Positions 6,418 through 59,438 of a stretch of DNA of 64,000 nt are shown here, in pieces; positions within the stretch are counted from its first letter, which is position 1; each line of letters begins with the position of its first letter. A program made the translations under genes and the position numbers. This stretch comes from Escherichia coli (GTDB lineage Bacteria > Pseudomonadota > Gammaproteobacteria > Enterobacterales > Enterobacteriaceae), in NCBI RefSeq assembly GCF_024502345.1, contig NZ_JALDNN010000001.1; one strand, written 5' to 3'. The notes beneath the pieces were generated by a model. It was not told the DNA's origin. It did no database searches and saw only the letters and a list, made by a program, of their open reading frames with translations.

Positions 6418-8265
6418 TCAGATTGACAGCTTCTTGACGCGCTTGCCGCCATATAGCAGGTTTACGATGGCACGCGTACCGACAATCGCGGTAAACATCG
6501 ACGTCGCCACACCGATACCGGTAGTAATCGCGAACCCTTTAATTGCCCCGGTACCCACTGCGTACAGGATGATGACTTTAATCAGCGTGGTGATGTTCGC
6601 ATCGAAGATAGAACTGAATGCGCCACGATAACCTTCATCAATTGCCTGTTGAACAGTACGTCCGTTGCTCAACTCTTCTTTAATACGTTCGTTGATCAGT
6701 ACGTTCGCATCGACCGCTACCGCAAGGGTTAAGACGATACCCGCGATACCTGGCATACTCAGTGTTGCGCCTGGCAACAGCGACATAATACCGACGATCA
6801 AGATCAAGTTGGCAATCAGAGCACTGGTCGCAATCAGACCAAACTTCTTATAGAAGATGATCATGAACAGAATAGAAACCAGCAGACCGGCAAGGCAAGC
6901 CTCCAGCCCCTGCTCAATGTTCTGCATACCCAGGGTCGGGCCAATTGTACGTTCTTCAACAATCTGAATCGGCGCGATCAACGCACCGGCACGCAGCAGC
7001 AGTGACAGCTGACGGGCTTCGTTCGGGTTGTTGATGCCGGTGATACGGAAGCTGTTACCCAGACGAGACTGGATGTTGGCGATGTTAATCACCTCTTCCT
7101 GTTTCACCAGAACCGCACGACCATTTGCATCTTTCTTACCGCTGTCTTTGTACTCCACAAACAGGGTTGCCATCGGTTTGCCGATGTTGTCCTTGGTGAA
7201 GTTAGACATAATGTTGCCACCAGCGCTATCGAGCGAGATGTTAACCTGCGGCTGGTTGTATTCGTCCTGGCTGGAAGTGGAGTCGGTGATATGGTCACCG
7301 GTAAGAATTACGCGTTTGTACAGCACAACCGGCTGACCTTCGCGGGTCTGTTTCACTTCAGAGTCGCCCGGTACGCGACCGGATGCCGCAGCGGCCTGAT
7401 CAACGTTGGTGTTTACCAGACGGAATTCCAGCGTTGCCGTCGCACCCAGAATCTCTTTCGCACGCGCAGTGTCCTGAATACCTGGCAGTTCAACAACGAT
7501 ACGGTCAGCACCCTGACGCTGAACCACCGGCTCCGCCACGCCAAGTTGGTTTACACGGTTACGCAGGATATTGATGTTCTGCTGCACCGCATATTCACGC
7601 GCTTCACTCAGACGAGCATCGCTCATTACCGCACGCAGCTGGTTGCTGCCCTGGCTACTAATCACCAGGTCCGGATGGCGCTTGCTCAGATACGCAATGG
7701 CTTCATCACGAGCTTTAGCATCGCGGAAAGTGATGCTCAGGCCGTAGTTGTTTTCTTTACGAACGGTGGTATACGGGATGCCCTTTTCGCGCAGGTCGCT
7801 GCGCAGGCTATCGATATTTTGTTCCTGGAGTTTGCCAAGCGCGGTGTCCATATCCACTTCCATCAGGAAGTGAACGCCGCCACGCAGGTCAAGGCCGAGC
7901 TTCATCGGCTCAGCGTGAATAGCTGCCAGCCAGCGCGGCGTTGCCGGGGCAAGGTTAAGCGCCACGACGTATTTGTCACCCATAACGCCCATTAATGCTT
8001 CACGAGCGCGCAGCTGGGTGTCAGTGGAGTCGAAGCGCGCAAGAATAGCGCCCTCTTCCAGTGCCACAGACTTAGCAGTTATTTTTTCTTCTTGTAACGT
8101 TTTCTGGACCTGGATCAGCGTTTGCTCACTGGCGGCGACTCCGCGCGCACCAGTGATCTGAACAGCCGGATCCTCACCAAACAGGTTGGGAAGCGCATAC
8201 AGCAGACCGATGACAATCACCACGATCAGCATGACGTACTTCCACAAAGGATAACGGTTTAACAC
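6418..8265 (-). CDS. secD: protein translocase subunit SecD
   Basis: Track ORF 615 aa, [39 protein letters not shown]... Confidence 0.95.
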
Positions 8266-48801: not shown

Positions 48802-49764
48802 TTATTGCACGAAGCGCGAGGTAACGTACTGGCTGTAATCATTCGCTACAGCCGGGACCTTGCCCTGCTCTTTCAAAAACTGCGCGGTGTCGATGATCGC
48901 TTTGTTCACCGGTCCGGTCAGTTCTGCCGTTTGTTGCTGCGGCGTCAGATAGGTATTCCCCTTCACCAGCCCCGGAACGTCACCTTCAGGCACGCCGCTT
49001 AAACGCGCCAGTTTGCTGATGTTTTCCGGCTGTTTCAGCCACGCGTCTGGGTTAGCAATGTACGGTTGCTGAGCATCGATGGCGCTTTTGGCGAACGCTT
49101 TCACGACCTCAGGATGTTTCTCGGCAAAATCTTTGCGCACCACCCAGACGTCCAGCGTTGGCGCACCCCACTGCCCGACCTGTTCAGAATCGGTCAGCAC
49201 CTTGCCGTCTTTTTCCAGGGCGTTAACCGCCGGTGCCCAGACATAAGCACCATCAATATCTCCCCGCTGCCAGGCAGCGATAATCGCGGGCGGCTGCAGG
49301 TTCACAATCTCCACTTGCCCGGGTTTAATGCCCCAGTGTTTCAGCGCCGCCAGCAGGCTGTAGTGGGTAGTGGAGATAAACGGTACGGCGATGCGTTTGC
49401 CAATCAGATCTTCGGGTTTGCTGATAGTTTTCTTCACCACCAGCGCTTCGGAGTTACCCAGTTTTGACGCCAGCAAGAAGACTTCAATCGGCACCTGTTG
49501 GCTGGCTGCAACCGCTAATGGGCTGGAACCGAGGTTGCCGATTTGCACGTCGCCAGAAGCCAGCGCCCGCACGATGCTGGCTCCGCTGTCAAACTTACGC
49601 CAGTCCACGGTTGCTCCGCTTTCTTTAGCAAAGGTGTTGTCGGCCTGAGCCACTTTCGCCGGTTCGGCTGAGGTTTGATACGCCACGGTGACGTTCACCG
49701 CCTGCGCCTGAAAAGCGATGAATGCCAGTGCGGCAAGAAGAGTGTTACGCGATGAAATTGCCAT
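48802..49764 (-). CDS. tauA: taurine ABC transporter periplasmic binding protein
   Basis: Track ORF 320 aa; signal peptide MAISSRNTLLAALAFIAFQAQA. Confidence 0.95.
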   Translation of the reverse strand: MAISSRNTLLAALAFIAFQAQAVNVTVAYQTSAEPAKVAQADNTFAKESGATVDWRKFDSGASIVRALASGDVQIGNLGSSPLAVAASQQVPIEVFLLASKLGNSEALVVKKTISKPEDLIGKRIAVPFISTTHYSLLAALKHWGIKPGQVEIVNLQPPAIIAAWQRGDIDGAYVWAPAVNALEKDGKVLTDSEQVGQWGAPTLDVWVVRKDFAEKHPEVVKAFAKSAIDAQQPYIANPDAWLKQPENISKLARLSGVPEGDVPGLVKGNTYLTPQQQTAELTGPVNKAIIDTAQFLKEQGKVPAVANDYSQYVTSRFVQ

Positions 49765-50066
49765 GATTGTCTGCTCCCCTGTCTTGTTATGGGAGCAGTA
49801 TTTCGTTGCGGGTCAGTTTGATAAAGGAATTAAAAGGTCTTGTTAAGAACAAAGCGTTTTTAGAAAAAAATCGGCAATGGTTAGCGAGTTTGCGCATTTT
49901 GCGGTTTTGGCGAACGTATCCCGCCGGTTCACAAGCCAGATAAGATGTGCGCGCTCCGGCAAATTATTGCCATTTTGTTACATCCATTCCATATCTGTCG
50001 CTGGTTGATTGCCAGCGCCGCGCCGTGATGCATGATAGGAGAATTAGATAATAAGAGAAGAAAAGT

Positions 50067-50696
50067 ATGATTCGGGTAGTGCTGGTGGATGACCATGTGG
50101 TGGTGCGCTCTGGCTTCGCACAATTACTCTCTCTGGAAGACGATCTGGAGGTCATTGGTCAGTACAGTAGTGCCGCGCAGGCATGGTCGGCATTAATCCG
50201 TGATGACGTCAATGTTGCCGTCATTGATATTGCCATGCCGGACGAAAACGGCCTCAGTTTGCTTAAGCGCCTGCGTGCACAAAAACCGCAATTTCGCGCC
50301 ATTATTCTTAGCATTTATGACGCGCCAACCTTTGTGCAAAGCGCGCTGGATGCCGGTGCCAGCGGGTATTTAACCAAACGCTGTGGGCCGGAAGAGTTAG
50401 TACAGGCGGTGCGCTCGGTCGGGCTGGGCGGGCATTATCTCTGTGCCGATGCGATTCGGGCTTTACGCGGCGGCGGGCAACCCGCCCAGGCGCTGGAAAT
50501 TCTCACCCCACGAGAACGTGAAGTGTTTGATTTACTGGTCAAAGGAGACAGCGTTAAAGAGATCGCCTTTAAACTCGAACTCAGTCATAAAACGGTACAT
50601 GTGCATCGCGCCAATGTGCTGGGAAAACTGAACTGCCATAGCACCATTGAACTGGTACATTTTGCGCTCGACCACCATCTGCTGGCGGGGCATTAA
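50067..50696 (+). CDS. UhpA-like response regulator (NarL/FixJ family, LuxR-type HTH)
   Basis: Track ORF 209 aa, MIRVVLVDDHVVVRSGFAQLL...; receiver domain with DD..D and C-terminal HTH (KEIAFKLELSHKTVHVHRANVLGKL); aligns along its length with recalled UhpA. Confidence 0.85.
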   Translation: MIRVVLVDDHVVVRSGFAQLLSLEDDLEVIGQYSSAAQAWSALIRDDVNVAVIDIAMPDENGLSLLKRLRAQKPQFRAIILSIYDAPTFVQSALDAGASGYLTKRCGPEELVQAVRSVGLGGHYLCADAIRALRGGGQPAQALEILTPREREVFDLLVKGDSVKEIAFKLELSHKTVHVHRANVLGKLNCHSTIELVHFALDHHLLAGH

Positions 50697-52237
50697 TGTC
50701 GCGCAATCTTCGTCATTGGGTGATTTCGCTGTTTATTGTGCTGGCCTGGGGAACCGGCTGGCTGATGCTGTGGACGCTCAGCTTTTATCTGACCAATAAC
50801 GGTCAACAGGCGGTGTTGTTTCTCCCGCAGGGAGTTTATCTCGCCCTTGTTATTTTGCTCTCTCGCCGCTACTGGCCTGCGTTGGTGCTCCCCCCTTTGC
50901 TGATGATGTTCTGGCTCCATAGTGAACAGCTATTGAACGGTTATCTCATGCTGGCAACGCCGGTTATTAGCCTGTTTCCTGTCCTCCTTGCGCAAAACTT
51001 CTGGCACCGTTTTCCACTTTACTGGCAGCGTCTGACGTTGCTGTTAGCCACTGTCACGGCAGCTTCATTGTTGAATACCGCCCTGCTCTCCCCTTTTATG
51101 TCAGGCCCAATAATGCTGCCGGGTTTGACCTCATTTACCGGCGGCGTATTACTGACGCCGTTTGTCTATCTTATCTTTGAGTTTCTGCGCCAGCAGCATC
51201 GCTACCAGCTCCTGGGACTCGATACGCATAATCCCCCCTTGCGTACCTCTTTAATCATCTGGTGTAGCCTGTTTTTTATTATTGGTATCGGCACTCAGAT
51301 GGTGCTGTCACCTGAAATTGAACGTCTGCTGTTGATCGTGGTCTTTTTGCCCAATGTGGTGATGGCGTGGAAATTTGGCTGGCAAGGTGGCGTACTCTCC
51401 GGGCTTTTGGGCAGCATGATGATCACCATCGCCCGCCAGATTGGCGTGGGCTTTAGTAACCTGGTGGAGCTGGAGATTTTCCTCGCGACCCAGGCCTTGC
51501 TGGGAATTGGCCTGGGCATTGCCATCAGTCGCCAGCAACATCTGGCGCTAAACCTGCACCATTACCGACAACGGCTGGAGGCCGAGCTGGCAGCGCGGCG
51601 GGCATTGGCGGAAAAGCTGATCCACACCGAGGAGGACACGCGAAAAAACCTGGCGCGAGAGCTGCACGACGAAATCGGTCAGAACATCACCGCCATTCAG
51701 ATCCAGTCGCAACTGGTGAAGCGGGCGCGTGATCCGGCGCAAATTCAATCCGCAGCCAGCCAAATCAATGAGCTCGCCCGCCGCATTCATCTCTCCACCC
51801 GCCAATTGCTGCGCCAGTTGCGGCCTCCCGCGCTTGATGAACTGACATTTCGCGAAGCGTTGCTGCATCTGATTAATGAATTTGCCTTTAGTGAACGCGG
51901 CATTCATTGCCAGTTTGCCTATCAACTGAACTCCACACCAGAAAACGAAACGGTGCGCTTTACCTTGTATCGGTTATTGCAGGAGTTGCTCAATAACATC
52001 TGTAAACACGCCGAAGCCAGCGAAGTGACGATTATCCTGCGCCAGCAGGGAGAGGTATTGCATCTGGAAGTCAGCGACAACGGTGTGGGGATCGCCAGCG
52101 GGAAAATGGCCGGATTTGGCATTCAGGGGATGCGTGAGCGCGTCAGCGCCCTGGGCGGCGACTTAACGCTCGAAAAACAGCACGGCACGCGGGTAATTGT
52201 TAACTTGCCCACATTTTTGCAACAAATCGCCGGATAA
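50696..52237 (+). CDS. UhpB-like sensor histidine kinase (MASE1-type membrane domain, HisKA_3, HATPase)
   Basis: Track ORF 513 aa; multiple N-terminal TM helices, H-box ELHDEIGQNITAI, ATP-binding region; start overlaps the stop of the upstream regulator. Confidence 0.85.
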   Translation: MSRNLRHWVISLFIVLAWGTGWLMLWTLSFYLTNNGQQAVLFLPQGVYLALVILLSRRYWPALVLPPLLMMFWLHSEQLLNGYLMLATPVISLFPVLLAQNFWHRFPLYWQRLTLLLATVTAASLLNTALLSPFMSGPIMLPGLTSFTGGVLLTPFVYLIFEFLRQQHRYQLLGLDTHNPPLRTSLIIWCSLFFIIGIGTQMVLSPEIERLLLIVVFLPNVVMAWKFGWQGGVLSGLLGSMMITIARQIGVGFSNLVELEIFLATQALLGIGLGIAISRQQHLALNLHHYRQRLEAELAARRALAEKLIHTEEDTRKNLARELHDEIGQNITAIQIQSQLVKRARDPAQIQSAASQINELARRIHLSTRQLLRQLRPPALDELTFREALLHLINEFAFSERGIHCQFAYQLNSTPENETVRFTLYRLLQELLNNICKHAEASEVTIILRQQGEVLHLEVSDNGVGIASGKMAGFGIQGMRERVSALGGDLTLEKQHGTRVIVNLPTFLQQIAG

Positions 52238-52309
52238 CCAGGAAAAAGTCTTAGGTATCCCGGATTTTCTCTCATCCCCTTTCACTTTCATTTTCATATA
52301 GTCAGCAAC

Positions 52310-53626
52310 ATGGAGACAACCATGCACGCGCGTTCAGCGAGAGAAATTAATCAATGCTACCGGACATTACGTCCGCGATTGCTGATGTGCATGATTATTG
52401 GCTACGCCGCATTTTATCTGACGCGAAAAAGCGTGAATTACGTCCTTCCGGCGCTACAAACCGACCTCGGACTGGATAAAGGCGACATTGGCCTGCTGGG
52501 TTCGCTGTTTTATCTCAGCTACGGATTGTCGAAATTTACCGCCGGACTGTGGCATGACAGCCATGGACAACGCGGTTTTATGGGCGTCGGCTTGTTCGCC
52601 ACCGGGTTATTGAACGTGGTGTTTGCCTTTGGCGAATCACTTACGCTTCTGCTTGTGGTCTGGACACTGAACGGTTTTTTTCAGGGCTGGGGATGGCCAC
52701 CGTGTGCCCGCTTGCTGACCCACTGGTACTCACGCAATGAGCGCGGTTTCTGGTGGGGCTGCTGGAATATGTCGATCAACATTGGCGGAGCGATTATTCC
52801 GCTGATTAGCGCCTTTGCCGCCCACTGGTGGGGCTGGCAGGCCGCGATGCTGACACCGGGGATAATCAGCATGGCATTAGGGATCTGGTTAACGCTACAA
52901 CTCAAAGGCACGCCCCAGGAAGAGGGATTACCGACAGTTGGTCACTGGCGTCACGATCCGCTGGAGTTACGTCAGGAACAACAAAGTCCGCCGATGGGGC
53001 TGTGGCAAATGTTGCGCACCACCATGCTGCAAAATCCGCTGATCTGGCTACTGGGCGTCTCTTATGTACTGGTTTATGTGATCCGGATTGCGCTTAACGA
53101 CTGGGGCAATATCTGGCTGACGGAAAGCCACGGTGTCAACCTGCTCAGCGCCAACGCCACGGTAATGCTGTTTGAAGTGGGCGGCTTACTCGGCGCGTTA
53201 TTTGCCGGATGGGGATCGGATTTGCTGTTTAGCGGGCAACGAGCGCCAATGATTTTGCTGTTCACGTTGGGGTTGATGGTGTCAGTCGCCGCACTGTGGC
53301 TGGCACCGGTTCATCACTACGCTCTGCTGGCAGTGTGCTTTTTTACCGTGGGCTTTTTCGTCTTTGGCCCACAAATGCTGATTGGACTTGCGGCGGTGGA
53401 GTGTGGGCACAAAGCTGCGGCGGGTTCAATCACCGGATTTCTCGGCCTGTTCGCTTACCTTGGCGCGGCGCTGGCAGGCTGGCCGCTGTCGCTGGTCATC
53501 GAACGCTACGGCTGGCCGGGAATGTTCAGTTTACTCTCGGTCGCCGCAGTACTTATGGGTTTACTGCTGATGCCGTTACTGATGGCGGGCATCACCACCA
53601 CTCACGCTCGAAGGATAAAACAATGA
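52310..53626 (+). CDS. UhpC-like MFS membrane protein (putative sugar-phosphate sensor)
   Basis: Track ORF 438 aa; organophosphate:Pi antiporter-type MFS motifs (YLTRKS, FFQGWGWPPCARLLTHWYS), similar in length and sequence to recalled UhpC. Confidence 0.8.
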   Translation: METTMHARSAREINQCYRTLRPRLLMCMIIGYAAFYLTRKSVNYVLPALQTDLGLDKGDIGLLGSLFYLSYGLSKFTAGLWHDSHGQRGFMGVGLFATGLLNVVFAFGESLTLLLVVWTLNGFFQGWGWPPCARLLTHWYSRNERGFWWGCWNMSINIGGAIIPLISAFAAHWWGWQAAMLTPGIISMALGIWLTLQLKGTPQEEGLPTVGHWRHDPLELRQEQQSPPMGLWQMLRTTMLQNPLIWLLGVSYVLVYVIRIALNDWGNIWLTESHGVNLLSANATVMLFEVGGLLGALFAGWGSDLLFSGQRAPMILLFTLGLMVSVAALWLAPVHHYALLAVCFFTVGFFVFGPQMLIGLAAVECGHKAAAGSITGFLGLFAYLGAALAGWPLSLVIERYGWPGMFSLLSVAAVLMGLLLMPLLMAGITTTHARRIKQ

Positions 53627-54654
53627 AAATGACCTTTACCTCTACTCTGATTGCTTCTGCCGTTGCGCTGGCGACTTTAACGGGTGCCGCGCAGGCAAAA
53701 GGCCGGCTGGTGGTCTATTGCAGCGCCACCAATGAAATGTGTGAGGCCGAAACCAAAGCGTTTGGCGAGAAATATGATGTAAAAACCTCGTTTATCCGCA
53801 ACGGTTCCGGAAGCACCCTGGCAAAAGTCGATGCTGAAAAGAAAAACCCCCAGGCTGACGTCTGGTACGGCGGCACTTTAGACCCGCAATCGCAGGCTGG
53901 CGAGATGGGCCTGCTACAGGCGTATAAATCCCCTAACCTTGAGCAGATCATGGAGAAATTCCGCGATCCGGCAAAAGTGAAAGGGAATCTGTCCTCTGCC
54001 GTTTATGTGGGGATCCTCGGTTTTGGCGTAAACACCGATCGTCTGAAAGAGAAAAACCTGCCGGTGCCGAAGTGCTGGAAAGATCTCACCAAACCGGAAT
54101 ATAAAGGCGAAATTCAAATTGCCGATCCGCAAAGTTCCGGTACTGCCTACACCGCCCTGGCTACTTTTGCGCAGCTGTGGGGGGAAGATCAGGCCTTTGA
54201 TTATCTAAAACAACTGAACGCCAACGTCTCTCAGTACACCAAATCAGGCATAGCCCCGGCACGTAACGCCGCCCGTGGCGAAACGGCGATTGGTATTGGC
54301 TTCCTGCATGACTACTCGCTGGAAAAAGAACAGGGCGCGCCGCTGGAGTTGATTTCCCCGTGTGAAGGTACGGGCTACGAAATTGGCGGCGTCAGCATTC
54401 TGAAAGGCGCGCGCAACCTCGACAACGCCAAACTGTTTGTGGACTGGGTATTATCAAAAGAAGCTCAGGAACTGGCGTGGAAGAAAGGGAAGTCTTATCA
54501 GATCCTGACCAATACCACCGCCGAAACGTCGCCAAATTCGCTGAAGCTCGACGACCTGAAATTAATCAACTACGACATGGATAAATATGGTTCCACGGAT
54601 GTTCGTAAGGCATTGATTAATAAATGGGTCAGCGAAGTGAAGATGGGTAAATAA
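53623..54654 (+). CDS. afuA: AfuA/FbpA-type periplasmic substrate-binding protein of an ABC importer
   Basis: In-frame ATG at 53623 within track ORF 53296..54654 gives 343 aa with signal peptide MKMTFTSTLIASAVALATLTGAAQA; ATG overlaps the stop of the UhpC-like gene (ATGA). Confidence 0.8.
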   Translation: MKMTFTSTLIASAVALATLTGAAQAKGRLVVYCSATNEMCEAETKAFGEKYDVKTSFIRNGSGSTLAKVDAEKKNPQADVWYGGTLDPQSQAGEMGLLQAYKSPNLEQIMEKFRDPAKVKGNLSSAVYVGILGFGVNTDRLKEKNLPVPKCWKDLTKPEYKGEIQIADPQSSGTAYTALATFAQLWGEDQAFDYLKQLNANVSQYTKSGIAPARNAARGETAIGIGFLHDYSLEKEQGAPLELISPCEGTGYEIGGVSILKGARNLDNAKLFVDWVLSKEAQELAWKKGKSYQILTNTTAETSPNSLKLDDLKLINYDMDKYGSTDVRKALINKWVSEVKMGK

Positions 54655-54722
54655 ACCCGCATTAGGCGTATTTGCCGGGTGCAGCACAAACGCCTGCCCC
54701 GGCCAACCATACCGGAACTACT

Positions 54723-56801
54723 ATGTCACAGACACTTGCACTCCATCCCGTGAAAAAGCGGGATGCGATTTTCCTTTGGGTTTTACTGGGCTGGCTGGCA
54801 TTTATACTGTTGCCGAGCTGGAGCCTCGATTATGGCCTGCTGGAGTCCACGAGTGATGAGATCCTCGAGGCTTATGGCTGGTCGCATTTTAATATCAGCT
54901 GGCTGTGGTATTTACTCCCGAGCCTGTTGCTGGTTCGCCCGTTTCGTGAGGCCACGCGCGAACAGCGTAGTCGTCATTATTTTGATGCCAGCTGGGCATT
55001 GCTCTGTATGGCGTTTATCGTCATCAGCGCCACCGTGGCTGGACGCGGTTTAGGCTACGCCGCCATCGTGCTGTTTGTTGAACTAGGCGCGATTATGACG
55101 CTGGCCTTAACCCGCCTCGAATGGCTGGGCGGCGACCGCTTCGTGATCGGCTCACTGATTGCGATTGTGGCGCTGATTGGCATTTTTATCGTCTGGCCGA
55201 GCATCGCCATTTTTATCCCGATGTTCACCAACGACGCGGGAGAGTTCGCCCCGCTGGCGTTTATGACCGTGCTCTCGCAGGCACATATTGTTCAGGTGAT
55301 CGTCAACTCTATCGTCTTGTCGATAGCGGTGGGGATAGGCTGTACTTTCTTCGGCCTGGTGCTGGCGATTTATACCACGCGCATCGCTAAACGCAGCGCC
55401 ATTATTGGTCGCATCTTTTCCATTTTGCCCATCGTTACGCCACCGTTTGTGGTCGGCTTAGGCGTGACGCTCATGATGGGGCGCTCCGGCTATGTTACGG
55501 AATTTATGGTGGAGTGGTTTGGGCTGACCAACACCAACTGGCTGTACGGTTTTACCGGGATCTGGCTGGCACAGGTTCTGGCATTCACGCCAATGGCATT
55601 TATGATCCTCGACGGGGCCATTAAAACCATTCATCCCTCGCTGGAAGAGGCCTCCTACACCCTGCGCGCCAGCCGCTGGCAAACCTTTAACGGCGTGTTT
55701 GTGCCGTTGTTGAAGCCCGCACTCGCCAATGCCTTTTTAATCGTCGTGGTACAGTCACTGGCTGATTTCAGTAACCCGCTGGTACTTGGCGGTAACTTCG
55801 ACGTACTGGCGACGCAAATTTACTTCTATATTACCGGCTCGCAGCTGGATTATCAGGCCGCCAGCACGCTTGGCGCTTTCCTGCTGCTGTTCTCGCTGCT
55901 GGTGTTCTGCATCCAGTATATGTGGATTGGTAAACGCTCTTACGTCACGGTTTCCGGCAAATCCTACCGTGGCGACGTCCAGCCGCTACCGGTCACCCTG
56001 GTGTGGAGCGTGGTCGCCATACTTGCGATATGGATTGCCTTTAACGCCCTGCTCTACGGCAGCATTTTCTACGGCAGCTTCACGGTGAACTGGGGCGTGG
56101 ACTACACCCTGACGCTGGATAACTTTATCAAGCTATTTGGTCAGGGAATGAGCGACGGCGCGTGGCCTTCACTGCTGGATACCCTGCTCTACGCCGGGAT
56201 TGCCGCTCCCATTACCGCTATCTTTGGCCTGCTCATCGCCTGGGTGGTGGTGCGTCAACAATTCAAAGGCAAAAAGACCATCGAGTTCACCACCATGCTG
56301 TGCTTTGCCGTACCGGGTACGGTGGCGGGCGTTTCGTATATTCTTGCCTTTAACAGCGCTCCGGTTTATCTCACCGGAACGGCGGCAATTGTGATTATCT
56401 CGATGGTGATGCGTAACGTTCCGGTGGGTATTCGCGCCGGGATTGCGGGTCTGGGGCAGATCGACAAATCGCTGGATGAAGCCTCACTCAGCCTGCGCGC
56501 GGGTTCCTTGCGAACCATAACCCACATTTTACTGCCGCTGCTGCGTCCGGCCATTCTCTCGGCCCTGATCTACAGCTTTGTGCGGGCCATCACGACGGTC
56601 AGCGCCATCGTCTTTCTCGTCACGCCGGACACCCGCGTGGCAACCGCCTACATTCTTAACCGCGTTGAAGACGGCGAATATGGCGTAGCCATCGCCTATG
56701 GTTCGATTCTGATCGTGGTGATGCTGGCGATTATTTTCCTCTTTGACTGGCTGATCGGAGAAGCTCGTATCTCCCGTTCTAAAGCCAAAAACAAGGCGTA
56801 A
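54723..56801 (+). CDS. afuB: AfuB/FbpB-type ABC permease with two fused transmembrane domains
   Basis: Track ORF 54672..56801 starts at a TTG; first ATG at 54723 (MSQTLALHP...) gives about 692 aa; duplicated ABC permease modules; the alternative start at 54672 cannot be excluded. Confidence 0.8.
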
Positions 56802-57859
56802 TGGAGCGCACTATGAGTCAGAAAAATTTTGTTGAACTGCGCAACGTCACTAAACGATTCGGCAGTAATACGGTTATCGACAATATCAATCTCACCATTC
56901 CACAAGGGCAAATGGTGACGCTGCTCGGTCCTTCCGGCTGTGGCAAAACCACCATTTTGCGTCTGGTTGCCGGGCTGGAAAAACCGAGCGAAGGGCAAAT
57001 TTTTATTGATGGCGAAGATGTCACGCATCGTTCCATTCAACAGCGCGATATCTGCATGGTGTTTCAGTCATACGCTCTGTTCCCGCATATGTCGCTGGGT
57101 GAAAACGTTGGCTACGGGCTGAAGATGCTTGGCGTCTCGCGTAGCGAAGTGAAACAGCGGGTGAAGGAGGCGCTGGCAATGGTGGATCTGGAAGGCTTCG
57201 AGGACCGCTATGTCGATCAGATTTCCGGTGGTCAGCAACAGCGTGTGGCACTGGCCCGCGCGTTGATCCTCAAGCCAAAGGTGCTGCTGTTTGATGAGCC
57301 GTTAAGTAACCTCGATGCCAACCTGCGCCGCAGTATGCGCGATAAGATCCGCGAGCTGCAAAAGCAGTTTAATATCACGTCGCTCTACGTCACTCACGAT
57401 CAAAGTGAAGCTTTCGCGGTGTCCGACACTGTGCTGGTGATGAATAAAGGTCACATCATGCAGATTGGCTCACCGCAGGATCTCTATCGTCAGCCAGCCT
57501 CCCGATTTATGGCAAGTTTTATGGGCGACGCCAACCTGTTCCCGGCGAACTTTAGCGAAGAGTATGTCGATATCTACGGTTATCGCCTGCCGCGCGCGGC
57601 GCATTTCCCGGCGCAAGGTAGCGGCACCGTCGGCGTTCGCCCGGAAGCCATCACCTTAAGCAATCACGGCGAAGAGAGTCAGCGTTGTGTTATTCGCCAT
57701 GTCGCCTACATGGGGCCGCAGTACGAAGTGACCGTAGAGTGGCATGGACAGGAGATTTTATTACAAGTAAACGCCACCCGTTTACAGCCCGATATTGGTG
57801 AGCACTATTACCTCGAAATCCATCCTTACGGGATGTTTGTTTTAGCGGATACGGCATAA
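56801..57859 (+). CDS. afuC: AfuC/FbpC-type ABC transporter ATP-binding protein
   Basis: Track ORF 352 aa; Walker [10 protein letters not shown], signature [14 protein letters not shown], Walker [11 protein letters not shown]-terminal TOBE-like regulatory domain; ATG overlaps the afuB stop (TAATG); a start at 56813 with a GGAG RBS is also possible. Confidence 0.85.
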
Positions 57860-57873
57860 AAATAGCACATAAA

Positions 57874-57900
57874 CGGTCCCCATCTGTCTTGAGGGACCGT
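57874..57900 (+). terminator. possible terminator hairpin after afuC
   Basis: GGTCCC-N12-GGGACC stem-loop 15 bp after the afuC stop; no strong T-tract. Confidence 0.4.
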
Positions 57901-57943
57901 TCACCTGGTTAGGCTTCGGACAACAATTATTCTCCAGTGTTAT

Positions 57944-57992
57944 ATACTATAGGGGGGTATGTATTGACATATAGCATACCCCCCTATAGTAT
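57944..57992 (+). promoter_or_regulatory. frmRAB promoter/operator: long inverted repeat with G6/C6 tracts
   Basis: ATACTATAGGGGGGTATG-(12 bp with TTGACA)-CATACCCCCCTATAGTAT, near-perfect 18-bp arms 27 bp upstream of the frmR ATG; matches the TACT-G6-N-AGTA type RcnR/FrmR operator. Confidence 0.75.
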
Positions 57993-58018
57993 ATTGCGTG
58001 CAGATGATGAGGTGCGAA

Positions 58019-58294
58019 ATGCCCAGTACTCCGGAAGAGAAGAAAAAGGTCCTTACTCGAGTTCGTCGTATTCGGGGGCAGATTGATGCTCTGGAACGGT
58101 CGCTGGAGGGTGATGCCGAATGCCGTGCCATACTCCAACAGATCGCTGCCGTTCGGGGCGCGGCTAACGGGCTGATGGCAGAAGTGCTTGAAAGCCATAT
58201 CCGGGAAACGTTTGACCGAAATGACTGCTACAGCCGCGAAGTCAGCCAATCCGTTGACGACACTATTGAACTGGTTCGAGCCTATCTTAAATAG
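58019..58294 (+). CDS. frmR: formaldehyde-responsive repressor FrmR (CsoR/RcnR family)
   Basis: Track ORF 57998..58294; recognised N-terminus [31 protein letters not shown] gives 91 aa. Confidence 0.9.
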
Positions 58295-58298
58295 CTGA

Positions 58299-59438
<1,140 letters not shown>

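What the first reader, a model, noticed from the sequence alone, without database searches (positions are those of the whole stretch)
52238..53626. No intergenic space between the UhpC-like sensor and afuA: sensor and transporter appear co-transcribed
In the canonical system UhpA activates a separate uhpT promoter. Here the UhpC-like stop and the afuA start overlap (ATGA at 53623-53626), and afuA/afuB/afuC are also tightly packed. The only candidate promoter region inside the block is the 72-bp gap at 52238-52309. Inference: the sensor gene may be autoinduced together with the transporter, a different wiring from uhpABC-uhpT.
Basis: inference. Interest (0 to 1): 0.45.

Follow-up and report, generated by a model that had tools for sequence, protein, structure and literature searches.

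The report
Uhp-type promoter drives sensor plus AfuABC
The gene for a UhpC-like sugar-phosphate sensor and the AfuABC sugar-phosphate importer genes form one tightly coupled operon behind a promoter built like the classic uhpT promoter, so the sensor is probably induced together with its transporter; this is a modest rewiring of a known system, in a locus published under another name (FusKR).

Summary
The UhpC-like stop and the afuA start overlap (ATGA, 53623-53626). The upstream gap is 84 bp, not 72, because the conserved start is ATG 52322. afuA and afuB are 68 bp apart, with a REP-like hairpin between them.

The locus is EHEC island OI-20: fusR, fusK, z0461 and afuABC. The gap sequence is 100% identical to O157:H7 Sakai.

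In 79 related Enterobacterales loci the six-gene order is kept. The kinase-to-sensor gap carries a conserved footprint:
- two 6-5-6 inverted-repeat boxes, centred at about -63 and -42;
- a TAnnnT -10 element and no -35;
- an invariant CRP-like site at -103.5, inside the last codons of the kinase gene.

These spacings match the K-12 uhpT promoter to within 1 bp. No box, and no sign of a conserved embedded element, precedes afuA.

Published arrays show ECs0416 and afuA rising together when glucose runs out.

The most likely wiring is a Uhp-type regulator activating one uhpC'-afuABC transcript, which gives positive feedback on the sensor. Two points are unresolved. Nobody has mapped the transcript. 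The only reported regulation, seen second-hand, is that FusKR represses z0461 in response to fucose.

I rate this a new variant of a known kind, of moderate interest.

The parts
49976..49991 (+). CRP-like site (TGTTA-N6-TTCCA), roughly 60 bp upstream of the predicted P1 start
   Evidence: The block TTTTGTTAC...CAT is conserved in 76 aligned upstream regions. Its position relative to P1 is inferred.
50009..50036 (+). P1, a sigma-70-type promoter for the regulator-kinase genes (-35 TTGCCA, 16 nt, -10 CATGAT)
   Evidence: Found by the consensus scan. Both hexamers are conserved across genera whose upstream neighbour genes differ.
50067..50696 (+). Response regulator (NarL/FixJ type; UhpA paralogue; FusR / Z0463 / ECs_0418)
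   Evidence: 48% identical to K-12 UhpA, with an identical recognition-helix stretch KTVHVHRAN. The best NCBIfam hit is UhpA, at 193 bits, below the equivalog cut-off of 258.
50696..52237 (+). MASE1 histidine kinase (UhpB paralogue; FusK / Z0462 / ECs_0417). Its start overlaps the regulator stop by 1 nt (TAATG).
   Evidence: 35% identical to UhpB over the full length. NCBIfam UhpB scores 381.7 bits against a cut-off of 408. PGAP names it a MASE1 kinase.
52198..52213 (+). CRP-like site TGTTA-N6-CCACA inside kinase codons 500-506, centred at 52205.5, which is -103.5 from the predicted start
   Evidence: Present in all 75 distinct sequences, 8 of 10 core positions matching the CRP consensus (9 of 10 in one), at a fixed distance from the stop. 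It has the lowest synonymous-codon entropy of 2189 windows in the six genes: 0.26 against a median of 1.06. Its distance to the -10 element is 91.5 bp, the same as the CAP site of K-12 uhpT.
52238..52254 (+). Upstream ('strong'-type) regulator box CCAGGA-AAAAG-TCTTAG, centred at about -63
   Evidence: Conserved in all loci, and a perfect palindrome CCAGGAA-N3-TTCCTGG in Buttiauxella and Erwinia. It is the only weight-matrix hit in the 64-kb window, at 31.4 bits against 6.6 for the next best. It matches the K-12 uhpT box at 14 of 17 positions.
52259..52275 (+). Downstream ('weak'-type) box CCCGGA-TTTTC-TCTCAT, centred at about -42; it contains the nearly invariant TCTCATCC
   Evidence: TCTCATCC is conserved in nearly all sequences. 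The box centre lies 30.0 bp from the -10 element in both the window and K-12 uhpT.
52297..52302 (+). P2 -10 element TATAGT, with no -35 hexamer. The predicted start is about 52309.
   Evidence: The TAnnnT pattern is kept in all taxa. The generic -35/-10 scan finds nothing here, as expected for an activator-dependent promoter. The start site is inferred by analogy with uhpT.
52312..52315 (+). Ribosome-binding site GGAG for the sensor gene
   Evidence: Conserved, 6 nt before the conserved ATG at 52322.
52322..53626 (+). UhpC-like MFS protein (Z0461 / ECs_0416). The in-frame ATG at 52310 is the ORF-finder start but is not conserved.
   Evidence: 53% identical to K-12 UhpC. It passes the NCBIfam UhpC subfamily cut-off, 587.7 against 564. 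The protein accession is the same as EDL933 Z0461.
53611..53626 (+). Translational-coupling junction: AAGGA (53611-53615) inside the last sensor codons, then ATGA (53623-53626)
   Evidence: Read from the sequence. The AAGGA motif is kept before the afuA ATG in all junction variants.
53623..54654 (+). afuA, periplasmic sugar-phosphate-binding protein
   Evidence: E = 1.5e-169 to the A. pleuropneumoniae AfuA structures 4R72-4R75. The function is shown in PMC4546632.
54674..54703 (+). REP-like GC-rich hairpin between afuA and afuB
   Evidence: Predicted stem of about -19 kcal/mol, z-score -1.67. A hairpin sits at this position in all taxa although its sequence differs, and in Buttiauxella and Atlantibacter it is followed by a T-rich run. 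There is a sub-threshold Rfam naRNA4 match.
54723..56801 (+). afuB, fused double permease
   Evidence: PGAP start. ATGTCA/ATGTCT is conserved in most loci; Erwinia-group and a few others read ATGAGT, ATGACT or ATGGCA. NCBIfam permease hits.
56813..57859 (+). afuC, ABC ATPase (alternative start at ATG 56801)
   Evidence: NCBIfam NF008513 scores 699 bits, above its cut-off of 496. Annotated by PGAP.

Best explanation
The block is a paralogue of the UhpABC hexose-phosphate sensing system. In it, the regulated uhpT-type promoter (P2, 52198-52309) sits between the kinase gene and the UhpC-like gene, rather than after uhpC.

P1 (50009-50036) transcribes the regulator and kinase genes. No convincing terminator follows the kinase gene, so read-through probably supplies a basal level of the sensor.

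When the UhpC-like protein detects external sugar phosphate, it switches the MASE1 kinase on. The phosphorylated regulator then binds the two inverted-repeat boxes at about -63 and -42. With help from CRP-cAMP at -103.5, it recruits RNA polymerase to a -10-only promoter.

One mRNA then carries uhpC'-afuA-afuB-afuC. afuA is translationally coupled to the sensor gene (AAGGA plus ATGA). The REP-like hairpin after afuA probably stabilises or partly terminates the 5' segment, so that more binding protein than permease is made.

The net effect is induction of an ATP-driven sugar-phosphate importer, together with positive feedback on the sensor.

Shown by sequence and comparison: the gene order, the overlap, the promoter anatomy and its match to uhpT, the nucleotide-level constraint on the CRP-like site, and the absence of any other conserved element.

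Inferred: the ligand, the sensor-kinase partnership, activation rather than repression, the start site, read-through from P1, and the role of the hairpin.
For: - Gene identities.
- The six-gene order is kept in 79 of 80 related loci across several Enterobacterales families.
- The kinase-to-sensor gap keeps its length and a footprint of two boxes, -10, SD and ATG.
- The geometry equals that of K-12 uhpT. CRP centre to -10 is 91.5 bp in both. Weak box to -10 is 30.0 bp in both. Strong box to weak box is 21 bp against 22 bp (using the CAP position at -103 quoted in PMC5352689).
- The weight matrix from afu loci finds, as its only hit of at least 8 bits in 9.5 kb of the K-12 uhp locus, the box within the region reported as the UhpA strong site. 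It is unique in the 64-kb window and occurs only in this gap across 1.13 Mb of related loci.
- The regulator's recognition-helix stretch KTVHVHRAN is identical to that of UhpA.
- The CRP-like site has the strongest synonymous-site constraint in the whole block.
- The last 120 codons of the sensor gene show ordinary synonymous variation; the lowest window ranks 632 of 2189. No sigma-70-like site lies on the + strand within the sensor gene.
- Expression: in O157:H7 Sakai at glucose exhaustion, ECs0416 rose by 3.55 log2 and afuA by 5.21 log2, in the same expression cluster, while ECs0418 rose transiently (PMC2241611). Z0461 and afuB (Z0459) each appear among the up-regulated genes in bovine gut contents; whether in the same contrasts was not checked.
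Against: - No transcript start or operon mapping is available to me.
- PMC6199705, citing Pacheco et al. 2012, states that FusKR represses z0461 in minimal medium with fucose. That is the opposite sign to the one I infer.
- The reviews describe fucose, not sugar phosphate, as the FusK signal.
- The published FusR site in the ler promoter does not resemble the boxes: weight-matrix score -17.
- The induction reported in PMC2241611 occurred without any added sugar phosphate, so CRP or RpoS alone could account for it.
- afuA rose more than the sensor gene, which fits either mRNA stabilisation by the hairpin or an extra promoter.
- Two Yersinia species have about 160 bp between the sensor gene and afuA.
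Confidence: 0.65

Rival explanations
1. The published FusKR model applies as it stands. The kinase senses fucose on its own, and the phosphorylated regulator is a repressor.
For: Second-hand reports say that FusK senses fucose, that FusR represses ler, and that FusKR represses z0461 and the fuc genes. The window is the same allele as EHEC: the P2 region is 100% identical to Sakai.
Against: The box positions (-63 and -42), the missing -35 and the CRP-like site at -103.5 reproduce an activator-dependent promoter, uhpT, to within 1 bp. Repressors normally overlap the -35 to +1 region (established knowledge). The module is conserved next to afuABC in many genera where, to my knowledge, LEE is not found. 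The kinase has no periplasmic domain and always comes with a UhpC-type partner. The ler site does not match the boxes. I could not read the primary paper.
Confidence: 0.2
2. afuABC has its own promoter inside the 3' end of the sensor gene. It is expressed largely independently, and the ATGA overlap is incidental.
For: afuA was induced more strongly than the sensor gene: 5.21 against 3.55 log2. afuABC exists without any Uhp-like module in Xenorhabdus and in more distant homologues. Two Yersinia have a spacer of about 160 bp.
Against: There is no sigma-70-like match on the + strand in 52322-53626. There is no regulator box near the junction in any of 80 loci. Synonymous variation in the last 120 sensor codons is ordinary. 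The spacer is 60 bp or less in 77 of 79 loci and has no conserved motif other than the ribosome-binding site. The higher afuA signal is equally explained by the hairpin after afuA.
Confidence: 0.1
3. The UhpC-like protein is mainly an induced transporter, the 'UhpT' of this module, rather than the sensor. In that case no sensor feedback exists, only two transporters in one regulated operon.
For: The gene occupies the position that uhpT occupies after the regulated promoter. [quoted passage not shown]
Against: It scores 587.7 bits on the UhpC subfamily model against 213.8 on UhpT. It co-occurs with the kinase and regulator in every complete locus. The MASE1 kinase lacks a periplasmic sensing domain, as does UhpB, which depends on UhpC (established knowledge).
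Confidence: 0.15

Closest known systems
E. coli UhpABC-uhpT hexose-6-phosphate system
   Same: The three regulatory proteins are paralogous: 48%, 35% and 53% identity. The recognition-helix stretch is identical. The promoter logic is the same: a CAP site at -103.5, two CYnRGA inverted-repeat boxes at about -64 and -42, and a -10 element without a -35. Spacings agree to within 1 bp.
   Different: The regulated promoter lies upstream of the UhpC-type gene rather than downstream, so the sensor gene is inside the regulated operon. The output is an ATP-driven ABC importer (afuABC) instead of the UhpT antiporter. The CRP-like site is embedded in the kinase coding sequence. The regulator and kinase score below the NCBIfam equivalog cut-offs for UhpA and UhpB.
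FusKR two-component system of EHEC island OI-20 (Pacheco et al. 2012, known to me only through citing papers)
   Same: These are the same genes. The promoter region is 100% identical to O157:H7 Sakai ECs_0416-0417, and the Z0461 protein accession is the same.
   Different: The published description concerns fucose sensing and repression of ler and z0461. It does not, in anything I could read, describe a uhpT-type promoter, a CRP site, or co-transcription of z0461 with afuABC. One review says the system is confined to EHEC O157:H7. Here it is complete in 518 of 5426 finished E. coli genomes, including urinary isolates, and is widespread in other genera.
AfuABC sugar-phosphate ABC importer (Sit et al. 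2015, PMC4546632)
   Same: afuA is an orthologue of the crystallised protein. The C. rodentium version of this island was shown to transport sugar phosphates.
   Different: That paper notes only that afuABC and the two-component system are neighbours. It gives no promoter, operon or regulation data; a search of its text found zero occurrences of 'promoter'. Xenorhabdus and two more distant AfuA homologues examined here have no Uhp-like module next to afuA.
malE-malF type intergenic REP hairpins in ABC operons (established knowledge)
   Same: A GC-rich palindrome lies directly after the binding-protein gene and before the permease gene.
   Different: The function here is untested. The sequence is REP-like only in Escherichia, Citrobacter and Klebsiella. 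Other genera have unrelated hairpins at the same position.

Membership tests
UhpABC-uhpT system | Response regulator is a UhpA equivalog (NCBIfam NF007685, cut-off 258 bits) | tested here: not met
   It is the best hit but scores 193.4 bits. It is 48% identical to UhpA, with the same recognition-helix stretch. It is a paralogue, not an equivalog.
UhpABC-uhpT system | Kinase is a UhpB equivalog (NF008649, cut-off 408 bits) | tested here: not met
   381.7 bits over the full length. 35% identity, including the membrane domain.
UhpABC-uhpT system | MFS protein belongs to the UhpC receptor subfamily (NF008661, cut-off 564 bits) | tested here: met
   587.7 bits, against 213.8 for UhpT. 53% identity to K-12 UhpC.
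UhpABC-uhpT system | Regulated promoter with a CAP site at -103.5, strong and weak UhpA sites between -80 and -32, and no -35 | tested here: met
   All sequence elements are present with spacings equal to K-12 within 1 bp. The weight matrix cross-identifies the K-12 site. Binding itself was not tested.
UhpABC-uhpT system | Regulated target is the UhpT antiporter gene, and uhpC lies upstream of the regulated promoter | tested here: not met
   The genes after the promoter are uhpC' followed by afuABC.
UhpABC-uhpT system | Induction by external glucose-6-phosphate through UhpC and UhpB | not testable with these tools
   This needs reporter or expression assays with and without G6P.
FusKR (EHEC OI-20) | Sequence identity with EHEC z0461-z0463 / ECs_0416-0418 | tested here: met
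   The P2 region is 100% identical to Sakai. Z0461 has the same accession, WP_000543352.1. The gene order is identical.
FusKR (EHEC OI-20) | Fucose-stimulated kinase activity and repression of ler and z0461 | not testable with these tools
   Known only from citing papers; the primary paper is not held. The quoted ler site does not match the boxes found here.
AfuABC sugar-phosphate importer | Binding protein orthologous to the AfuA crystallised with G6P, F6P and S7P | tested here: met
   E = 1.5e-169 to 4R72-4R75 and 1.7e-173 to 8X1A. The ligand-contact residues were not individually checked against 4R73.
AfuABC sugar-phosphate importer | Fused double permease plus one ATPase gene downstream | tested here: met
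   A 692-aa protein with permease-profile matches in both halves (residues 199-399 and 485-674), and a 348-aa ATPase.
REP element | Imperfect GC-rich palindrome of about 35 bp in an intergenic, transcribed position | tested here: inconclusive
   The hairpin at 54674-54703 folds at about -19 kcal/mol, but its z-score is only -1.67. The Rfam naRNA4 match, a family I recall as REP-derived, is sub-threshold at 26.9 bits against 59.5. The resemblance to the REP consensus is from memory.

The most novel reading that the evidence does not exclude
The module published as the fucose sensor FusKR is, in origin and in its main output, a UhpABC-type sugar-phosphate sensing system. Its own target is the uhpC'-afuABC operon. 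It activates that operon through a uhpT-like, CRP-assisted promoter, part of which is written into the kinase coding sequence. The effects on fucose use and LEE in EHEC would then be secondary or due to cross-talk. Because the recognition helices are identical, the canonical UhpA and this regulator may also cross-activate each other's promoters.
Probability: 0.45. Interest if true: 0.65.

Novelty: new variant of a known kind. Interest (0 to 1): 0.45.

Why it matters
If this is right, a virulence-linked two-component system of EHEC has a clear ancestral job: switching on an ATP-driven sugar-phosphate importer that Sit et al. 2015 showed to matter for gut colonisation in C. rodentium.

The wiring differs from the textbook Uhp circuit because the signal receptor sits inside its own regulon. 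That arrangement predicts positive feedback, with possible hysteresis or memory of exposure.

It also gives a well-supported example of a transcription-factor site kept invariant within the last codons of an upstream gene.

Finally, it gives concrete coordinates for testing whether fucose or sugar phosphates are the physiological signal. It also suggests cross-talk with UhpA and uhpT, which could bear on fosfomycin uptake.

Tried and rejected
Papers not held:
- Pacheco 2012 (PMC3518558 and its PubMed id).
- Olekhnovich and Kadner 2002 (PMC135017).
- Moisi 2013 (PMC3624563).

As a result, the UhpA half-site description and the FusR data are second-hand or from memory. The uhpT geometry was rebuilt from the K-12 sequence plus the CAP position quoted in PMC5352689.

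Readings rejected:
- The terminator-like hairpin at 52189-52210 flagged by the scan is not a conserved structure. Only 9 of 75 sequences keep all six pairs, and no changes are compensated. The conserved part is the CRP-like primary sequence.
- TTG 54672 is not the afuB start, and ATG 52310 is not the conserved sensor start.

Searches that found nothing useful:
- Rfam found nothing above threshold in 49000-58500.
- I looked for a second regulator box upstream of the regulator gene, at the sensor/afuA junction and in the Yersinia 160-bp spacer. None was found.
- I looked for the Uhp-like module next to more distant AfuA homologues (72%, 54%, and Xenorhabdus at 80%). It was absent. P0125 sat on a contig too short to judge.
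- My recollection that Vibrio cholerae has the coupled arrangement could not be checked.
- Literature searches found no paper on the regulation of afuABC by this two-component system.
Full report
**Observation.**
The ORF table and the sequence confirm the overlap. The UhpC-like frame ends at 53626 and an ATG at 53623 opens afuA, so the two share ATGA. RefSeq annotation of a 99.8% identical genome (EC1515) and of O157:H7 Sakai shows the same 4-nt overlap.

Three details need correcting.
- The ORF finder's first ATG (52310) is not conserved. The ATG shared by all relatives is 52322, preceded by GGAG at 52312-52315. The kinase-to-sensor gap is therefore 84 bp (52238-52321).
- afuA and afuB are separated by 68 bp (54655-54722). 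The TTG at 54672 lies inside that spacer.
- afuB and afuC are 11 bp apart.

An ATGA overlap is one of the most frequent junctions in bacterial operons (established knowledge), so on its own it says little.

**What the genes are.**
- The regulator (50067-50696) is 48% identical to K-12 UhpA.
- The MASE1 kinase (50696-52237) is 35% identical to UhpB over its full length.
- The MFS protein is 53% identical to UhpC.
- In NCBIfam, the MFS protein passes the UhpC subfamily cut-off (587.7 against 564). The regulator and kinase hit UhpA and UhpB best but fall below the equivalog cut-offs. They are paralogues.
- afuA matches the crystallised sugar-phosphate-binding AfuA (4R72-4R75) at E = 1.5e-169.

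The block lies between tauABCD and frmRAB. It is complete in 518 of 5426 finished E. coli genomes. It is EHEC island OI-20:
- ECs_0418 / Z0463 is fusR.
- ECs_0417 / Z0462 is fusK.
- ECs_0416 / Z0461 is the UhpC-like gene.
- ECs_0415-0413 are afuABC.

The window's promoter region is 100% identical to Sakai.

**Relatives.**
A scan of one genome per species returned 80 loci with AfuA at least 85% identical. They come from Citrobacter, Klebsiella, Raoultella, Enterobacter, Serratia, Buttiauxella, Rahnella, Erwinia, Pantoea, Brenneria, Yersinia and others.

Every locus that is not cut off by a contig end keeps the order regulator, kinase, UhpC', AfuA, AfuB, AfuC on one strand.

The distance from the sensor stop to the afuA start varies:
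- -4 in E. coli, Citrobacter and Serratia marcescens.
- -1, or +4 to +20, in Klebsiella, Enterobacter, Buttiauxella and others.
- 35-60 in Rahnella, Erwinia and Brenneria.
- About 160 only in two Yersinia.

An AAGGA ribosome-binding site 6-9 nt before the afuA ATG is always kept. By contrast, the kinase-to-sensor gap is present in almost every locus, mostly at 81-135 bp.

**The gap is a uhpT-type promoter.**
Aligning 75 distinct gaps gives a sharp footprint:
- Immediately after the kinase stop there is a 17-bp inverted repeat. It reads CCAGGAAAAAGTCTTAG at 52238-52254 in the window, and is a perfect CCAGGAA-N3-TTCCTGG in Buttiauxella and Erwinia.
- A second 6-5-6 repeat ends in the nearly invariant TCTCATCC (52259-52277).
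- A TAnnnT -10 element follows (TATAGT, 52297-52302).
- Then come GGAG and the ATG.
- There is no -35 hexamer, and the generic -35/-10 scan does not flag the gap.

The K-12 uhpT promoter contains CTAAGA-AATTT-TCCAGG and CCTGGA-CGCTA-TCTCAG. The four boxes share half-sites of the form CYnRGA.

I placed the uhpT start from the CAP centre at about -103 quoted in PMC5352689. On that basis the K-12 boxes centre at -64 and -42, which lies within the strong and weak UhpA sites described in the literature. A script confirmed the spacings:

| Spacing | Window | K-12 uhpT |
|---|---|---|
| Weak box centre to -10 | 30.0 bp | 30.0 bp |
| Strong box to weak box | 21 bp | 22 bp |
| CRP-type site to -10 | 91.5 bp | 91.5 bp |

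A weight matrix built only from the afu loci gave these results:
- One hit in the 64-kb window: 31.4 bits, with the next best at 6.6.
- One hit of at least 8 bits in the 9.5-kb K-12 uhp locus. It is the box within the reported UhpA strong-site region, at 17.3 bits.
- Hits only in this gap across 1.13 Mb of related loci.

The regulator's recognition-helix stretch KTVHVHRAN is identical to that of UhpA. This fits recognition of the same kind of box.

**A third element inside the kinase gene.**
TGTTA-N6-CCACA at 52198-52213 is centred at 52205.5, which is -103.5 from the predicted start at about 52309. It lies in kinase codons 500-506 (VIVNLPT).

It is present, at a fixed distance from the stop, in all 75 sequences. 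This holds even where the kinases are only 55-58% identical.

I computed a synonymous-codon entropy scan over all six genes, using 2189 seven-codon windows. This window came out lowest, at 0.26 against a median of 1.06. That indicates selection on the DNA itself, beyond what the protein requires.

The terminator-like hairpin that the simple scan placed here is not supported. Only 9 of 75 sequences keep all six pairs, and changes are not compensated.

A CRP site is the best reading because of the 8-of-10 core match and the identical position to the uhpT CAP site. Binding is untested.

**Nothing else precedes afuA.**
- No box lies near the junction in any locus.
- No sigma-70-like match lies on the + strand within the sensor gene.
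- The last 120 sensor codons vary normally at synonymous sites; the best window ranks 632 of 2189.
- The Yersinia 160-bp spacers are poorly conserved between the two species and show no clear signal.

Between afuA and afuB, every taxon has a GC-rich hairpin, though its sequence differs. It is REP-like in E. coli (54674-54703, about -19 kcal/mol). In Buttiauxella and Atlantibacter it is followed by a T-rich run. By analogy with malE-malF, this probably raises the ratio of binding protein to permease. That is an inference.

**Upstream promoter.**
Before the regulator gene, a -35 TTGCCA and a -10 CATGAT (50009-50036) are conserved across genera, along with a further TGTTA-containing block (49976-49991) at a plausible class-I CRP distance. 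No Uhp-type box is present there. The regulator and kinase therefore do not seem to sit in the feedback loop; only the sensor does.

**Expression data in the literature.**
Sakai was grown in glucose minimal medium (PMC2241611). At glucose exhaustion:
- ECs0416 rose by 3.55 log2.
- ECs0415 (afuA) rose by 5.21 log2. This was the largest rise among O157-specific genes, and it fell in the same expression cluster as ECs0416.
- ECs0418 rose transiently.

This fits co-transcription and catabolite control. No sugar phosphate was added, however, so it does not show regulator dependence.

In EDL933 grown in bovine gut contents, Z0461 and Z0459 (afuB) both appear among the up-regulated genes; I did not check whether they rise in the same contrasts.

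**Model and its status.**
The most likely mechanism is the one given under Best explanation. P1 makes the regulator and kinase, with read-through giving basal sensor. Sugar phosphate acts through UhpC' and the kinase to phosphorylate the regulator. The regulator binds at -63 and -42 and, with CRP at -103.5, fires P2. One uhpC'-afuABC mRNA results, with translational coupling at ATGA and a hairpin after afuA.

- Supported by sequence: the anatomy and its conservation.
- Inferred: the ligand, the direction of regulation and the start site.

**Conflict with the published name.**
Reviews and citing papers say that FusK senses fucose, and that FusR represses ler and, together with FusK, z0461. I could not read the primary paper.

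Several points are hard to reconcile with a role limited to fucose and LEE:
- Repression from boxes at -63 and -42 of a promoter with no -35 would be unusual.
- The quoted ler site does not resemble the boxes (score -17).
- The module is widespread in bacteria that, to my knowledge, do not carry LEE, and it is always joined to afuABC.
- One review states that the system is confined to EHEC O157:H7. It is in fact complete in about 10% of finished E. coli genomes, including urinary isolates.

None of this disproves the published observations. It suggests they are not the whole story.

**Range of the coupling.**
The following have no Uhp-like module and no box:
- afuABC in Xenorhabdus (AfuA 80% identical).
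- A 72% homologue.
- A 54% homologue.

The importer therefore exists both free-standing and coupled. The coupled form is documented here only for Enterobacterales other than Morganellaceae.

**Verdict.**
The finding is a rewired variant of a known circuit in an already named locus. It is of moderate interest, mainly because it offers a concrete, testable alternative view of FusKR, and because of the regulatory site embedded in coding sequence.

Noticed in passing
window 49976-50036: The promoter upstream of the regulator gene (-35 TTGCCA, -10 CATGAT) and a TGTTA-containing block about 60 bp upstream of the predicted start are conserved across genera whose neighbouring genes differ. This suggests CRP control of the regulator-kinase genes as well.
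   Followed up: partly
window 52198-52213: A transcription-factor-like site is kept invariant inside the last codons of the kinase gene. It shows the strongest synonymous-site constraint in the six-gene block. The canonical uhpT CAP site likewise overlaps the uhpC stop codon in K-12 (L002 4296-4309).
   Followed up: yes
window 54674-54703; L003, L007, L046 at about 8040-8170: There is a REP-like palindrome between afuA and afuB. Some Citrobacter carry two copies (spacer 136-139 bp), whereas Buttiauxella and Atlantibacter have an unrelated hairpin followed by a T-rich run at the same place.
   Followed up: partly
L083 6582-7000 (Xenorhabdus bovienii): Here afuABC stands alone after a 419-bp AT-rich spacer. 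It has no regulator, kinase or UhpC' genes and no Uhp-type box, so it must be regulated differently.
   Followed up: partly
L049 13540-13556 (Entomohabitans teleogrylli): A perfect CCAGGAAATTTTCCTGG palindrome lies about 2.3 kb downstream of afuC, in a gap between two minus-strand ORFs, with a good CRP-like TGTGATCACA about 90 bp away. It may be another target of the same regulator family.
   Followed up: no
L079 6841-7000 and L082 6844-7000 (Yersinia nurmii, Y. aldovae): A spacer of about 160 bp separates the sensor gene from afuA, against 60 bp or less elsewhere. It is poorly conserved between the two species and has no clear promoter or terminator.
   Followed up: partly
L012 5422-5699; L073 5244-5659; L078 about 5667: These loci have irregular kinase-to-sensor junctions: a 278-bp gap in Raoultella planticola, an apparently truncated kinase in a Buttiauxella MAG, and a kinase frame running into the sensor start in a Cedecea isolate. 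They may reflect insertions, pseudogenes or assembly errors.
   Followed up: no
window 49800-58000 compared with L010: E. coli carries at least two alleles of the island. The window allele is 99.8% identical to urinary isolate EC1515 and identical to Sakai in the promoter. Strain SCPM-O-B-8794 has a version with 95-99% protein identity.
   Followed up: no
window 57821-57835 and 57964-57992: No clear terminator follows afuC. The only terminator-like hairpin lies inside the afuC 3' end. A strong sigma-70-like site (TTGACA-17-TAGTAT) follows, presumably the frmR promoter.
   Followed up: no
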